Shown: piece after piece, positions 19,861 through 24,980 of the stretch | Numbering within the stretch: the stretch's first letter is position 1 | How the letters are laid out: each line of letters begins with the position of its first letter | Origin: the human T2T-CHM13v2.0 reference genome, Homo sapiens | DNA length: 64,000 nt | Strand: one strand, 5' to 3' | Assembly: GCF_009914755.1 (NCBI RefSeq) | Contig: NC_060926.1 | Notes under the pieces: generated by a model | Told to the model about the DNA's origin: nothing | The model's input: the letters and a program-made list of their open reading frames with translations, nothing else | Databases searched by the model: none | Program-made: the position numbers and the translations under genes

Positions 19861-22241
19861 ATTTGGATTATTCTTTTTTTTTCTTCCCTGCTCTTCCCTT
19901 TCCTCCTCTTCCTTTCCCTTCCTGCTCCTTTCTCATTTCCTCCCTCCTTTCCTTCTTTAACTGTTAGAATTAGAGCCCGCATGCCTATCAGTATTTAAGA
20001 TCATGGAGGAAAGACAGTTGGGCAACTTCATGTGAAGCACGTTTCCCTCACTTCAGAATCCCTCCCTCTTGGAAGTGAACACAAGGACTTGGATGGTTCA
20101 GCTTCACTCTGAGGGTCCCTTGCCAGGAATGTCTGTCCTTCCCAGGTAGAGGAGAACAGCCTCACAGCTGCTCCGGGAGGCCCTGGATTTGCTCTCACAG
20201 GAATTCAAGGCTGGGATCCTCCTGAAACAGGCAACCATGTGGCTAGGGGAAGGGGAAATGAGCTGTATCAGAACCAGCATCTCATTGCACCCCTCTAGCT
20301 GAGGCCCTGAGTGGGAGACCCAGAACTACTTTGGGCTCGGTTTCCTAGGATAAGAATACCAATGCCTCAGGAGAGGACAAGTGAGCTGGTGTTTCTGAAA
20401 GCTCTGCGGAGTGCTCACTAAAACAAGAGCGACGTGTGGAACAGGCGGTGTGGCTATCTCATCCTCAGCACAAGTGCTCATGCATGGTGTCTGTGGATCT
20501 GAATCTGGCCCCACCACTTAACTAGGTACTGAGTCTCCTGTGCCCCAGTCTCTTCAACTGTGCAGTGAGCTACTAACAGCATTCTCTTCACGACTGCAGG
20601 AAGGGTGTAGAGATAACACAAGTAAGGATCTTAGTAGAGTGCCTGGCACCCTCAACATGAATGTTAGTCATTTAAAAAAATTCCTTGACCAAGTAGTAAG
20701 GAGGAAAGTGGGAGAAAGGGCAGTATCCAGGAGAGAAGATTAGCTGAAAAAAATGGACTTCTCTCAGTTGAGATCTCCTAAAGAAGACTTTCCCAAGGAT
20801 GCTCAGGATTTCATTGGCTCTCAAATGCTGCTGCAAGGGGAAATAGAGTATCTCATCTTCCCCGGCTCCCACCCCATGCTCTAGAATTGTAGGTGGAATC
20901 ACTGAAGAAAGAAGGACTTTGTGCCCATTCCTGACTCAGATGAGGTGGGTCTAGGCTGTACGAGCGTTGGGAGAGGACAAGAAGAGGGAGGATCATCTCT
21001 ATTAAAATTTTAAAATGTTTCACTAGGTTTGTTTTGAAAATTCCTTTCCCTTTGATATTCAGCATGTTTAGCTGTTGGCTTTCCCTAGGTTAGGCAGTGG
21101 AGACAAACACTGCCCCTCCCTAAATCCCAAGAGCTCACACCAGCTAAGACTCATTGCTCACTCATATTTACTGTGGGCAACAGGTTTGCTAGAATTCTAC
21201 TTTGCTCCATGTATCTTTAAAAAAAAGCTTTCTGCTTTTTTTGTTGACCAAATTTTACAATGGTAAAAATATTAATCTTACAACCAGGAGGTATTGAGCA
21301 CTTGTTATGTAGAAATCAACCTTGAGTTTCAAATGTTGCCGCCACTGGTGAAACTTCTCATGGGAAACTCCTATTACAGTTGATGTTCCAGGTGACATGT
21401 TAAATAGCAAGAACCAATCTACTGTGCTTCCAGATTACTATATTTTACACTAAGTACACTACCTACAAATTAAATAAAATGGAAGCAGTTAACTTATAAG
21501 ATTCATATTTTATACTCTACACTTCTAACATATTATACTAACAATTATAGCCTATCATGTTTCTAATTGAGCCATTGTATAATCTCTTAATAGAATAATA
21601 CTAAAAAGACACAATAAACACACATTTTTGTGGAGAGAGACAAAAAACATCTTGCAGTTGTCCTGGATCTTCAAAGTGGACACAATGGAAGGTGGATCAA
21701 CTTGGATGGGGAGCCGCTTCTGTTTCCAGGTGGTGTGGACACAAGATGGAAGCTAGCAGCTGCTGCTGAGGTGTTGCTGGTTGCCATGGGATCCTAGTGC
21801 CAGGCCAGAAAGGACCCTTTGTAGAGGAAACTTTGGGGGATCTTTGTCTTTGCTATTAGAAGAAGGGGAAGCACTGGTTGTCCTTATCTGAGGAACTTCT
21901 CTCTGGAACCTCATGGAAGATCAGAACCCGGCTGCTCCCCTCGCATGTAAGGTGGTTGAATCAAGAGCAGCAGTTGAGCTTCTGCCTGTACAAGGAGCAC
22001 CATGACAAGCTGAGAACCTGCTTGTTGAGAGACCTCAAAGGGTGGCAAGTGGTCAGCACTGGGCACCAGACCACGTGTTCCACATCACAGCCTGATGCTG
22101 TCCTTTACCAGGGATCTCGCCATGGCAAGTAGTGTGTAGTGTGCCCTTGGGCCTCTGCCAAATGCCTCATTGGTAATTTCAAGGATGGAAGGATACTTTT
22201 ACAGATCTTTACATTCTTGCTCAATCAATTTCTTTCTTTCA

Positions 22242-22545
22242 TTTTTTTTTTTTTTTTTTTTTGAGATGGAGTCTTGCTCTGTTGCTTAGGCTGGAGGGCA
22301 GTAGTGCAATCTCGGCTCACTGCAACCTCCGCCTCCCGGGTTCAAGTGATTCTCATGCATCAACCTCCCCAGTAGCTGGGATTACAAGCATGCACTACCA
22401 CGCCCAGTTAATTTTTTGTATTTTTAGTAGAGACGGGGTTTTGCCACATTGGCCAGGCTGGTCTTGAACTCCTGACCTCAGATGATCCACCTGCCTCGGC
22501 ATCCCAAAGTGCTGGGATTACAGATGTGAGCAGCCACACCCGGCC
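22242..22545 (-). mobile_element. AluS (Sx-like) inside the CTAGE retrocopy
   Basis: TSD tcaatc(a/g)att(t/c)cttt at 22221 and 22546. Confidence 0.92.
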
Positions 22546-22573
22546 TCAATCGATTCCTTTGTGATATATCTAT

Positions 22574-22900
22574 ATTTATTTATTTATTTATTTATTTATT
22601 TATTTATTTATTTATTTTTGAGACGGAGTCTCGCTCCTTCACCCAGGCCGGAGTGCAGTGGCGGGATCTCGGCTCACTGCAAGCTACGCCTCCCGGGTTC
22701 ACGCCATTCTCCTGCTTCAGCCTCCCGAGTAGCTGGGACTACAGGCGCCTGCCACTGCGCCCGGCTAATTTTTTGTATTTTTAGTAGAGACGGGGTTTCA
22801 TCGTGTTAGCCAGGATGGTCTCTATCTCCTGACCTTGTGATCCGCCCGCCTCGGCCTTCCAAAGTGCTGGGATAACAGGCGTGAGCCACCGCGCCTGGCC
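22574..22900 (-). mobile_element. AluY with (TAAA)n tail inside the CTAGE retrocopy
   Basis: Y diagnostics (ctgcaagct, cacgccattc, gttagccaggatgg). Confidence 0.93.
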
Positions 22901-23581
22901 TATTTTCTTTTCTTATGTTATTGTGGTTTTTCAGCTAACAAAGCTCTCATCCCAAAATCATGAACTTTTCTTTCTTGGGAAATAAGAAGGTTTTCATAAT
23001 AGTTATTCTTCCAAATTTTTCTGAAATAATGTTGGCTTGAATTTTATAGGTACATAACTCTTCAGATGCATTCTAATGTTTTCTTCTGCATTGGAAAGAT
23101 TCTTTTTTATTTTTACAGGGCAAATTCTCTATAGATTGGATATGGGGTAAACATTTCTTTTTCTCAATGAGATTTAGAAAGAAACAGATGTTTTTGCAGG
23201 AGCTTTTGTGACTCCTTTTCTGACTGTTTACTGGCTGCACTGAAGCTTTCTTGGTTTGGGACTTTGCATGTGCTCTTTAAGTGCATTGATTATTTTGGTT
23301 TCTTTAGTTAATTTCATGTACATTTTGTTTATTTTGTTTTGCAGAGTTTAAAAATAAGTATATATACTCCACCCCATAAATTAGTTCCTTCGAAACACTT
23401 CTGGAATTATCTTGTAAGAGATCACCATTAGATGCCATTCATATATTCAATTCCAGGTTCTCATGATCTGTGTTGTCTTGCTCAAGAACAGCAGCCCATT
23501 TGTTTATCACTAGCAAGTGTTCACTTAGAATCTTGACATGATTCTTTTTGTTAAGAACTTGCTCCACAGGCAGTCTAGAGA

Positions 23582-23902
23582 TTTTTTTAAATTAAATTTT
23601 TTTTTTTTAAATTTTTTGGGAGACAAGTTCTCACTCTGCTGCCCAGGTTGGAGTGCAGTGGCATGATTGCAGCTCACTTCAGCTTTGACATCCCAGGCTT
23701 AAGTGATTCCCCGACCTCAGCCTCCCAGGCAGCTGGGACCACAGGTGTGTACCACCACTCCTGGCTAATTTTTCTATTTTTTGTAGAGTTTAGATCTTGC
23801 CATGTTGCCCAGCCTGGTCTTAAACTCCCGAGATCAGGTGATCCTCCCACTTTGGCCTCCCAAAGTGCTGGGATTATAGGCTTGAGCCACCGCTCCCAGC
23901 CC
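23582..23902 (-). mobile_element. AluJ inside the CTAGE retrocopy
   Basis: J-type diverged Alu. TSD agtctagag(a/t)ttt at 23572 and 23903. Confidence 0.9.
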
Positions 23903-24980
23903 AGTCTAGAGTTTTCCGAGATTTTTTTTTCTCTTTAGTAACTTTGTTCACTCCATTTTTGAGATTCTTGTGAAAGCAGCTTCATGCGTCTTTGAAGACT
24001 GGAATTTTCCTCCAAAGTCTCTGTTAGTGCTCCTGAAGCTGTTCTCCATACTTCTGAGGGATTTTGAAGAATGTTTTGCTTGTAGCCACTTGTTAGATTT
24101 GCTTAGTTGAGTCTTCTAAGGACTGGGACTTGCTTGTAATCTCAGTCATCAGCTGAACTTCCTGTAAACATGTAGATTTCTGTTCTTTTTCATGTTTCTC
24201 TGTAATAATCTATTCTAAGACCAAGTAGAGAGTTAGAGCTTTCCAACTCTTTATTCGTGGTTTTCACATTTGCTATTTATGATAGTTTGTTCTTGAGTCT
24301 GACATCTAGGATAGTGGATTTAAGGTCTCCAAATTCTCTTGCAATGTGGCAAAACCTTTCAAAAATATGATGCCTTTCTTTTGAAAGGACAGAGACTCCA
24401 GTGGCCAGTTCTTTGTCTCCCCTAGCATAGAAACTCAAAGTTTTAAGCATAGGAACTCCCACTATGATGATAAAAGCTGTCATCTCCCATACAGCCTCCT
24501 TGGGGATGCTGCATTGTCTGGCATAGAGTCTCCAGGCCAAGCATCACACAGAGGATCAAGGCCAAAGAGGATCCTCTGGGGCTCTCAAGATCTCTGCCAT
24601 ATCTCCTCCGGTTGCCAGGACCCTGCTGGCCATAACAGATGTCAGAGCTAGCTCCATGGTGAGCACACTGTGCAGGACCCCCTCAGTCCTGGCACTAGGG
24701 ATGACTTCAGTGGAGGTGAGGGAGGAGACACGAAAAACAGTGTCCCCCGCCTTCCCATATCCTGACTCACAGGACAGTGATCATATCACATGACCTTAGG
24801 GATACATTCTAGGTTTGGCAGGCCAGAGGGAATGGCAGGTGGCTCCAGCCATCTTTGGCCTTTGGCTCTGAGAAATAAAAAAAGACTGATATGTTTTCAC
24901 ACCAGTAATCATTCTGGGTCTTCACTGCTCCTCTTTCTCATCTCTCCTTTTTAAAATTGAGATGACATTCTATAATATAT

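What the first reader, a model, noticed from the sequence alone, without database searches (positions are those of the whole stretch)
21240..24640. Hidden, full-length, very ancient MIA2/cTAGE5 retrocopy
Seen: after removing three Alus, the minus strand translates across frameshifts into a collinear run covering a hydrophobic N-terminal segment, both coiled coils, ...EITNEAFGR, a degraded C-terminal region and a 3'UTR, with no introns. The ORF track shows only an 87-aa sliver (24277-24540). Known: cTAGE5/MIA2 is the TANGO1 partner at ER exit sites, and the named primate CTAGE retrocopies are close to the parent. Inference: this copy is far more diverged than those, so it is an independent and much older retrotransposition that may be unannotated. 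The parent sequence was recalled from memory.
Basis: partly seen in the sequence, partly recalled or inferred. Interest (0 to 1): 0.85.

Follow-up and report, generated by a model that had tools for sequence, protein, structure and literature searches.

The report
Ancient MIA2/cTAGE5 processed pseudogene
This stretch is a very old, thoroughly broken, intron-less copy of the MIA2/cTAGE5 messenger RNA, interrupted by three Alu elements; it is one of several dozen equally old copies scattered over the genome, so it is a genomic fossil and not a working gene.

Summary
After the three Alus are removed, window ~21229-24930 (minus strand) is collinear with a CTAGE9/MIA2-type mRNA. The coding part aligns at 60.9% DNA identity over 1282 columns (E 3e-92). 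The 3'UTR runs to the parent's own poly(A) site, and there are no introns. The frame is dead: 5 in-frame stops and 22 frameshifting gaps in 423 codons.

The copy is far older than the primate CTAGE clade. On a protein tree the old lineage branches after platypus MIA2 and before all sampled eutherian MIA2. But it is not a lone, independent relic. The same genome holds at least 37 equally decayed copies that fall into subfamilies.

The window copy belongs to subfamily A (12 copies on the tree, counting sister copy L069). Its closest relative lies on contig 11 at 91.9 Mb. Subfamilies share deletions that splicing cannot explain: a 10-nt frameshift, an 84-nt deletion and a ~585-nt deletion. This suggests they were copied from already mutated templates (master copies).

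All but one of the 16 copies examined lack one 44-codon exon, an isoform still predicted today. RefSeq does not annotate the locus, and other catalogues could not be checked. It is an ordinary kind of object with a mildly interesting family history.

The parts
21229..21242 (-). A-rich remnant of the poly(A) tail
   Evidence: It follows directly after the position that aligns with the modern mRNA's cleavage site. The modern end reads ...AATAAATTTTCATTGA and the window reads ttgtaaaatttggtcaac at 21260-21243. Old copies L067 and L072 end at the same place.
21243..21728 (-). 3'UTR of the retrocopy
   Evidence: Proxy 3822-4111 aligns to 21738-21468 at 62% (E 5e-14). There is a direct hit to the parent's last exon, C14:33538954-33539074, at 72% (E 5e-6). 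Old copy L061 extends the match to 21264 (E 6e-12), L067 to 21213 and L072 to 21247.
21729..22153 (-). Remnant of the C-terminal proline-rich coding part. It lacks the 44-codon exon (proxy 3048-3179) and carries the subfamily's 10-nt and 84-nt deletions.
   Evidence: It is not alignable to the modern mRNA on its own. It is collinear with L047 (window 24179-21446, E 1e-78) and L066 (23416-21446, E 7e-74), and both of those match proxy 3190-3410 or 3535-3773.
22154..24657 (-). Decayed coding sequence from the start codon through the membrane segment and both coiled coils to ...AFGR. It is interrupted by three Alus.
   Evidence: There are 434 mismatches in 1215 aligned pairs, 26 gap events (22 not multiples of 3) and 5 stops in 423 codons. 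The alignment crosses at least 6 exon-exon junctions mapped on contig 14 with no gap longer than 57 nt. The ATG GAG at 24657-24652 was read by eye only.
24658..24930 (-). 5'UTR of the retrocopy; the 5' end is approximate
   Evidence: Similarity to the sister copy L067 runs to 24920 (65% over 1275 columns, E 2e-126). Similarity runs to 24845 for L072, 24804 for L014 and 24730 for L070. Nothing is shared further upstream except Alu sequence.
23581..23901 (-). Alu insertion 1 (most diverged of the three), flanked by the direct repeat ctctagactg
   Evidence: Two sub-threshold Metazoa_SRP matches. 27 other relatives of >=200 nt in the window, at 68.6-77.1% identity. The flanking repeat was read.
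22571..22900 (-). Alu insertion 2, with an (AAAT)n tail
   Evidence: Two sub-threshold Metazoa_SRP matches. 24 other relatives of >=200 nt, at up to 92.3% identity.
22241..22545 (-). Alu insertion 3, with a poly(A) tail and an imperfect 15-nt flanking repeat
   Evidence: Two sub-threshold Metazoa_SRP matches. 26 other relatives of >=200 nt, at up to 84% identity. The repeat was read.

Best explanation
Window ~21229-24930 (minus strand) is a non-functional processed pseudogene. It began as a spliced, polyadenylated transcript of the short (cTAGE5) form of MIA2. That transcript was reverse-transcribed and inserted here, presumably by LINE-1 machinery. The copy then decayed neutrally and was later hit by three Alus.

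The transcript isoform lacked one 44-codon exon, and that isoform is still predicted in living primates.

The copy is not a lone relic. It belongs to subfamily A of a family of at least 37 similarly decayed copies. The founder of that family left the MIA2 lineage after the monotreme split and before the radiation of the sampled (boreo)eutherians.

My reading of how the family spread has odds of about 0.55. In this reading the window copy was made from an already mutated, transcribed retrocopy (a 'master copy') and not from the MIA2 gene itself. One or two such masters kept producing daughters over a long period.

Shown: homology, absence of introns, poly(A) site, disablements, family, subfamilies, shared deletions and tree position.
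Inferred: the LINE-1 mechanism, the master-copy mode and ages in years.
For: Identity of the parent:
- The proxy frame is CTAGE9 at 100%, and its relatives are named MIA2/CTAGE5.
- The multi-exon source lies on contig 14 at 33.465-33.539 Mb.
- A published table maps CTAGE5 to 14q13 and its retrogene CTAGE6 to 7q35 (PMC2386082 Table 1, passage seen).

Homology and structure:
- Coding alignment E 3e-92 and 3'UTR alignment E 5e-14.
- Direct hits to contig-14 exons.
- At least 6 exon junctions crossed without introns.
- Same poly(A) site plus an A-rich tail.
- 5 stops and 22 frameshifting gaps.

Family:
- 23 other decayed loci, and 23 of 23 match the proxy mRNA at 57-72% DNA identity per alignment.
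- 9 more, and 9 of 9 match both the window and the proxy.
- 4 more that were not fetched.
- Coverage rises towards the 3' end, as expected for 5'-truncated retrocopies.

Subfamilies:
- In the IQ-TREE DNA tree (1114 columns, 24 old copies) the old clade has support 100, subfamily A 100, subfamily B 100, and WIN+L067 100.
- Model-free site counts give A-private 107, B-private 152 and modern-private 80 of 964 sites.
- WIN shares 60 of 614 derived sites with L067, against a background of 2.8-4.7% with other A members.

Already mutated template:
- A 10-nt deletion is shared by 5 of 5 A-crown copies examined plus L069.
- An 84-nt deletion is shared by 5 of 5 A-crown copies, with ends 6 and 18 nt away from exon borders.
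- A ~585-nt deletion with both ends inside exons is shared by 8 of 8 B-type copies examined.
- A-private changes are spread evenly over codon positions (36/38/33). Modern-private changes favour third positions (18/25/37).
- No flank is shared with L067, L014, L070 or L072, and 5' ends differ, so these are separate insertions.

Isoform:
- 15 of 16 old copies examined join ...GGCAGAG directly to the next exon.
- The marmoset MIA2 isoform X9 protein has the same junction.

Age:
- In the protein tree, OLD plus the eutherian sequences exclude platypus with support 100, and the eutherian clade excludes OLD with support 100.
Against: - The target-site duplication is not demonstrable. The best candidate is reached by 20% of 2000 shuffles.
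- The LINE-1 mechanism is inferred only.
- The C-terminal 415 nt match the modern mRNA only through intermediates.

Against the master-copy mode:
- The consensus of subfamily A has only 1 in-frame stop in 367 codons, where about 3 would be expected from neutral change (P about 0.17 by my Poisson estimate). WIN and L067 share no stop. A source with a maintained frame, either the gene or a functional retrogene, is therefore not excluded.
- B-private changes are depleted at codon position 2 (58/34/60).

Limits of the analysis:
- Alignments at about 60% identity place gap ends only approximately.
- The consensus sequences rest on 7-11 copies.
- No marsupial, afrotherian or xenarthran MIA2 was in the tree.
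- Long-branch attraction could pull the old lineage towards the base.
- Presence or absence of this insertion in other species was not tested.
Confidence: 0.9

Rival explanations
1. One reading: a single, independent retrotransposition made directly from the MIA2 gene. It simply predates the primate CTAGE copies and is unrelated to any other copy.
For: The copy is full length, from 5'UTR to poly(A) site. It carries a natural splice isoform. It shares no stop codon with its sister copy. The subfamily A consensus frame is almost open.
Against: At least 36 other old copies exist. The window copy shares a 10-nt frameshifting deletion and an 84-nt non-splice deletion with its subfamily. It shares 9.8% derived sites with L067 against about 4% background. 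Two subfamilies both have long private stems (107 and 152 private sites of 964), which a single gene lineage cannot give to both. A-private changes show no codon-position bias.
Confidence: 0.12
2. The source of subfamily A (and perhaps B) was a functional gene that is now lost. It could have been an ancient expressed CTAGE-like retrogene or a duplicated paralogue of cTAGE5. Such a gene would have kept an open frame for a long time, as the primate CTAGE retrogenes do today, and shed retrocopies before dying out.
For: The consensus of subfamily A has 1 stop in 367 codons, while single copies have 1-12. B-private changes are depleted at codon position 2. The primate family shows that cTAGE5 retrogenes can stay intact and multiply (review passage in PMC4949931).
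Against: The 10-nt deletion in the proline-rich part shifts the frame in all A copies examined and in L069. A-private changes are even over codon positions. The B consensus has 4 stops in 339 codons. No extant intact member was found in this genome. The stop deficit is not significant (P about 0.17).
Confidence: 0.2
3. The family spread by DNA-level (segmental) duplication of one old retrocopy, as described for the later growth of the primate CTAGE family.
For: Hierarchical subfamilies with shared deletions would also arise this way. The review passage in PMC4949931 reports DNA-based duplication for the primate family.
Against: No similarity extends beyond the element's ends between the window and L067, L014, L070 or L072. 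The 5' ends differ among copies while 3' ends coincide at the poly(A) site. The copies lie on many chromosomes.
Confidence: 0.03
4. The match is chance similarity between coiled-coil-like, low-complexity sequence and the CTAGE protein.
For: Protein identity is only 25-40%. BLASTP of the 88-aa frame against CTAGE9 finds nothing. Pfam finds no family.
Against: The DNA alignment has E 3e-92 over 1282 columns. The non-coding 3'UTR also matches, and ends at the same poly(A) site. The order of all parts is collinear.
Confidence: 0.01

Closest known systems
Primate CTAGE retrogene family (CTAGE1/2, 4, 6, 8, 9, 15 and named pseudogenes), derived from MIA2/cTAGE5
   Same: Same parent mRNA. Both are intron-less and carry 5'UTR, coding sequence and 3'UTR. 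Both are multi-copy with internal structure.
   Different: The primate copies are 86-99% identical in DNA to the CTAGE9 proxy, and many keep open frames of ~800 codons. The window copy is 61% identical, is riddled with stops and frameshifts, and falls in a separate old clade. According to a review passage (PMC4949931), the primate family starts with a retroposition in the haplorhine ancestor. I did not see the primary paper.
Ordinary LINE-1-mediated processed pseudogenes
   Same: Spliced, ends at the mRNA's own poly(A) site with an A-rich tail, lies on another chromosome than the parent, and is disabled.
   Different: The target-site duplication is not recoverable. The copy appears to descend from an already mutated template and not directly from the gene.
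Master-gene subfamilies of SINEs such as Alu (analogy recalled from general knowledge)
   Same: Nested subfamilies are defined by shared diagnostic substitutions and deletions. The stem evolution looks neutral, and root-to-tip lengths are roughly equal at 0.44-0.53.
   Different: The family derives from a protein-coding mRNA and has only dozens of copies. No internal promoter is shown. How a master stayed transcribed is unknown. One lead: a published table classes CTAGE5 to CTAGE6 as a retrocopy that carried its source promoter (PMC2386082, passages).
Extant MIA2 isoform without the 44-residue exon (for example marmoset isoform X9, 761 aa, P0065)
   Same: It has the same exon junction...NTAFGR|GPRGPGNPL... 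The window reads ...NEAFGR|GPRAH....
   Different: The living isoform is a predicted protein model from an intact gene. The window holds its decayed fossil.

Membership tests
Processed pseudogene of MIA2/cTAGE5 | Significant collinear similarity to the parent mRNA, including untranslated parts | tested here: met
   Coding alignment E 3e-92 and 3'UTR alignment E 5e-14. Direct hits to contig-14 exons.
Processed pseudogene of MIA2/cTAGE5 | Exons joined without introns | tested here: met
   One alignment crosses at least 6 junctions mapped on contig 14, where the exons are spread over more than 27 kb. No gap exceeds 57 nt once the Alus are removed.
Processed pseudogene of MIA2/cTAGE5 | Ends at the mRNA's poly(A) site with an A-rich tail | tested here: met
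   Alignment of the 3' ends of the window, L067, L072, the modern proxy and the contig-9 copy.
Processed pseudogene of MIA2/cTAGE5 | Target-site duplication | tested here: inconclusive
   The best flank match scores 9, and 20% of 2000 shuffles reach that score.
Processed pseudogene of MIA2/cTAGE5 | Disabled reading frame | tested here: met
   5 stops in 423 codons, and 22 of 26 gap events are not multiples of 3.
Young primate CTAGE clade | Clusters with CTAGE1/2/4/6/8/9/15-type copies on a tree | tested here: not met
   All old copies form a clade apart from the parent plus young copies, with UFBoot 100. The protein tree places the old lineage outside all sampled eutherian MIA2.
Direct, independent retrocopy of the gene | No derived mutations shared with other retrocopies beyond what splice isoforms explain | tested here: not met
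   Shared 10-nt and 84-nt deletions. 107 private sites on the subfamily A stem. 9.8% of derived sites shared with L067 against about 4% background.
Segmental duplicate | Homology continues into the flanks | tested here: not met
   No flank similarity with L067, L014, L070 or L072 apart from Alus.
Annotated pseudogene or named repeat family | Listed in GENCODE, pseudogene catalogues, Dfam or RepeatMasker | not testable with these tools
   RefSeq has no row (hub table). Six literature searches found nothing on old copies.

The most novel reading that the evidence does not exclude
Long before the primate CTAGE expansion, in stem therian or stem eutherian mammals, a cTAGE5 retrocopy became a self-perpetuating retro-element. 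One or two transcribed master copies, evolving neutrally and accumulating deletions, kept seeding daughters for tens of millions of years. They left at least 37 fossils in nested subfamilies, and the window holds a full-length member of the latest branch seen. If so, the same gene gave rise to a multi-copy retro-family twice, perhaps because its transcripts carry their own promoter.
Probability: 0.4. Interest if true: 0.5.

Novelty: new member of a known kind. Interest (0 to 1): 0.3.

Why it matters
The locus itself is a dead fossil with no sign of function, so the practical value is annotation. RefSeq leaves it blank, and about 2.75 kb of 'unique' intergenic DNA is in fact gene-derived.

The family is of modest evolutionary interest for three reasons.
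- MIA2/cTAGE5 was a prolific source of retrocopies well before primates.
- The fossils preserve an exon-skipped isoform that still exists.
- The shared non-splice deletions are a fairly clean example of processed pseudogenes copied from pseudogenes. That bears on how mRNA-derived sequences can behave like low-copy retroposons, and on the dating of pseudogenes by divergence from the parent. That method would overestimate this copy's insertion age.

Tried and rejected
- Pfam on 8 translated fragments and on CTAGE9 gave no meaningful family. The PDB sequence search with CTAGE9 gave 0 hits.
- BLASTP of the 88-aa frame against CTAGE9 gave no N-terminal match. The match appeared only with non-primate MIA2 queries.
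- Direct alignment of the 415-nt C-terminal stretch to the modern mRNA scored 33.3, against shuffles with mean 20.6 and maximum 33.1. blastn of that stretch against old and parent loci gave nothing significant.
- I first read subfamily B as a splice isoform skipping all proline-rich exons. I rejected this because the deletion starts about 70 nt inside one exon and ends just past the stop codon.
- I first read the 60-nt exon (proxy 3460-3519) as skipped in subfamily A. I rejected this because the gap is 84 nt and overshoots the exon by 6 and 18 nt.
- My own guess that the membrane segment lay at ~24560-24520 was wrong.
- The target-site duplication candidate is not significant.
- An own-genome search with a DNA alignment is not accepted by the tool, so I used single DNA queries instead.

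
Full report
WHAT IS THERE

Reading the minus strand of 21000-25000 shows three inserts at 23581-23901, 22571-22900 and 22241-22545. Each gives two sub-threshold matches to the 7SL RNA model on the minus strand. Each also has 24-27 other relatives of at least 200 nt elsewhere in the window (25-28 hits including the self-hit). They are dimeric Alus with A-rich tails. The first is flanked by the direct repeat ctctagactg, and its removal joins one reading frame by eye. 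A fourth Alu on the plus strand (24982-~25116) lies just upstream of the element.

THE PARENT

The window's genome could be searched. A 50-residue frame (23439-23591, minus) hits intron-less frames of about 800 codons on contigs 6, 7, 10, 13 and 18 at 53-58% identity. It also hits one short exon-sized stretch on contig 14.

The contig-6 frame is 'CTAGE family member 9 [Homo sapiens]' at 100% identity. Its relatives are named MIA2 / CTAGE5 in many mammals. Searching the genome with it returns a series of exon-sized matches on contig 14 between 33.465 and 33.539 Mb, which I mapped onto the CTAGE9 DNA. A published table places CTAGE5 at 14q13 and its retrogene CTAGE6 at 7q35 (PMC2386082, Table 1 passage). 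This fits the contig-14 gene and the contig-7 copies. I used the contig-6 copy, with its UTRs, as a stand-in for the mRNA ('proxy': coding 1501-3831, poly(A) near 4329).

tblastn of the CTAGE9 frame against the window gives five collinear minus-strand hits from 24215 to 22154, with E 7e-13 to 0.027.

With the Alus excised, blastn gives two alignments:
- Proxy 1778-3049 against window 24362-22153, 60.9% identity over 1282 columns, E 3e-92.
- Proxy 3822-4111 against window 21738-21468, 62% identity, E 5e-14. This second part is 3'UTR.

The window's 3' part also hits the contig-14 last exon directly (72%, E 5e-6). The single coding alignment crosses at least six exon junctions that lie more than 27 kb apart in the gene, with no gap over 57 nt.

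The copy ends where the modern mRNA ends, just after a decayed AATAAA, followed by an A-rich remnant at 21229-21242. At the 5' side, similarity to sister copies runs to 24920, about 260 nt upstream of an ATG GAG at 24657 that I read by eye.

The hydrophobic N-terminal segment is confirmed. For 5 of 6 MIA2-type N-termini, residues ~41-139 align to 24489-24223 (E 4e-9 to 7e-6 in a 760-nt space). CTAGE9 itself fails.

The frame is dead. There are 434 mismatches in 1215 pairs, 26 gap events of which 22 are not multiples of three, and 5 stops in 423 codons. A target-site duplication cannot be shown.

IT IS NOT ALONE

Besides the young copies (74-100% protein identity) and the contig-14 exons, one search lists 23 other stop-riddled matches at 26-42% identity on many chromosomes.
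- I fetched all 23. All 23 match the proxy mRNA at 57-72% DNA identity per alignment, and most include the 3'UTR.
- A DNA search with a window piece found 9 further loci at 66-73% identity. All 9 match both the window and the proxy.
- Another search found 4 more that I did not fetch.
- That makes at least 37 old copies. The search tool states that its counts are lower bounds.

Coverage of the proxy by old copies rises from 5' to 3' and ends near one place in the 3'UTR. This is the usual picture for 5'-truncated retrocopies.

SUBFAMILIES

A maximum-likelihood DNA tree of the coiled-coil region used 1114 columns, 24 old copies, 7 young copies and the contig-14 exons. It puts all old copies in one clade (UFBoot 100) apart from parent plus young copies, and resolves these groups:
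- Subfamily A (100): the window, L067, L073, L068, L066, L047, L070, L071, L014, L074 and L072, with L069 as sister (100).
- Subfamily B (100): L037, L040, L062, L053, L049, L060 and L051, with L046 as sister.
- A loose third group.

The window's sister is L067 on contig 11 (100). The shared stem is 0.11, and the tips are 0.16 and 0.20.

Model-free counts agree. Of 964 sites, 107 are private to the A consensus, 152 to B and 80 to the modern sequences. The window shares 60 of 614 derived sites with L067, against 2.8-4.7% with other A members.

Two long private stems cannot both lie on one gene lineage. Root-to-tip lengths are similar in all groups (about 0.44-0.53). The groups attached nearest the modern sequences have the longest tips. 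This is the reverse of what direct sampling from the gene at successive times would give.

SHARED DELETIONS

In 15 of 16 old copies examined...GGCAGAG is joined directly to the exon that starts at proxy 3180, so a 132-nt (44-codon) exon is skipped exactly. The same junction exists in a living predicted isoform, marmoset MIA2 X9, so this feature is a splice isoform.

Three other shared gaps are not splice products:
- A 10-nt deletion (proxy 3428-3437) in the 5 A-crown copies examined and in L069.
- An 84-nt deletion (proxy 3454-3537) in the 5 A-crown copies but not in L069. It overshoots a 60-nt exon by 6 and 18 nt.
- A ~585-nt deletion from inside one exon to just past the stop codon, in all 8 B-type copies examined.

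A-private substitutions are spread evenly over codon positions (36/38/33). Modern-private ones favour third positions (18/25/37).

The window shares no flank with L067, L014, L070 or L072, and 5' ends differ. These are therefore separate insertions and not segmental duplicates.

Together this favours copying from already mutated, transcribed retrocopies (master copies). I give this about 0.55.

Some evidence points the other way. The A consensus has only 1 stop in 367 codons (B has 4 in 339), and the window and L067 share no stop. A source that kept its frame, either the gene itself or a lost functional retrogene, is therefore not excluded. The stop deficit is not significant by my rough Poisson estimate (P about 0.17).

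AGE

I built consensus translations of A and B in a script. I placed them on a protein tree with named MIA2 proteins and unnamed cluster representatives.
- The old lineage is sister to all named eutherian sequences: orangutan, marmoset, lemur, tree shrew, dog, lynx, sperm whale relative, hippo, deer, fruit bat, CTAGE9 and CTAGE2.
- The eutherian clade excluding the old lineage has support 100.
- Old plus eutherian, excluding P0127, also has support 100.
- P0127 is platypus MIA2. The next groups out include a turtle and a gharial.

So the family's founder left the MIA2 lineage after the monotreme split and before the radiation of the sampled eutherians. No marsupial, afrotherian or xenarthran was in the tree, and long-branch effects are possible.

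The window's own insertion is younger than the founder. Its private branch is about 0.13-0.16 substitutions per site. Young primate copies show 0.02-0.05 in the same tree. From recalled neutral rates this suggests very roughly 80-160 million years, which I could not test across species. Dating it by divergence from the parent (39% mismatch) would overstate the insertion age, because part of that divergence arose in the source lineage.

THE C-TERMINAL PART

The 415 nt between ...AFGR and the 3'UTR cannot be aligned to the modern mRNA directly. They are collinear with L047 and L066 across the whole stretch (E 1e-78 and 7e-74). Those two copies match proline-rich exons of the proxy. In a joint alignment the window covers parts of four of the six C-terminal exons.

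KNOWN OR NEW

The primate CTAGE retrogene family is in print (PMC2386082 and PMC2394760, passages; PMC4949931, passages citing a primary paper I could not read). Six full-text searches found nothing on an older cohort of MIA2/cTAGE5 pseudogenes. This does not cover pseudogene catalogues, repeat libraries or supplements, none of which I could consult. RefSeq has no feature here (hub table).

VERDICT

This is a real, correctly spotted, very old processed pseudogene of an ordinary kind. It is one member of a sizeable dead family, with a mildly interesting history of copy-from-copy spread and a fossil splice isoform. I see no sign of present function.

Noticed in passing
window 24982-25116 (+), extending to ~25170: A fourth Alu lies immediately upstream of the retrocopy's 5' end. 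It has a sub-threshold 7SL match and many relatives in the fetched loci. It limits how precisely the 5' end and any target-site duplication can be read.
   Followed up: partly
window 22716-22767, 23716-23767, 22359-22410 (-) and 22283-22342 (+): Sub-threshold Rfam matches to mir-1268 and mir-3135 fall inside the Alus. They are probably Alu-derived family models and not genes.
   Followed up: no
L027/L031/L038 = G000:C9:27617633-27622855: An intermediate-age CTAGE-type copy: 87% DNA identity to the CTAGE9 proxy over 3077 columns, with 13 or more stops. On the DNA tree it groups with the parent and young copies, not with the old family.
   Followed up: partly
L048, L057, L064 (G000:C20:8.98 Mb, C7:67.5 Mb, C18:10.0 Mb): These three old copies share many states with one another in the 3'UTR alignment and in the junction alignment. 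They look like a tight sub-subfamily carrying the ~585-nt deletion. They were too short in the core region to be on the tree.
   Followed up: partly
L061 = G000:C13:36356900-36360400: This is the only old copy of 16 examined that may retain part of the 44-codon exon (85 of 132 positions aligned at 54% identity). The alignment is doubtful.
   Followed up: no
proteins P0122, P0162, P0138, P0141, P0123: These unnamed cluster representatives sit inside the eutherian MIA2 clade on long branches. They may be fast-evolving lineages or retrogene products. They were not named.
   Followed up: no
G000:C13:106273018-106273597, C2:237146420-237146652, C8:73094977-73095110, C4:123453584-123453811: Four further matches to the window's 3' part, at 66-75% identity. 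They were counted as old copies but never fetched or checked against the proxy.
   Followed up: no
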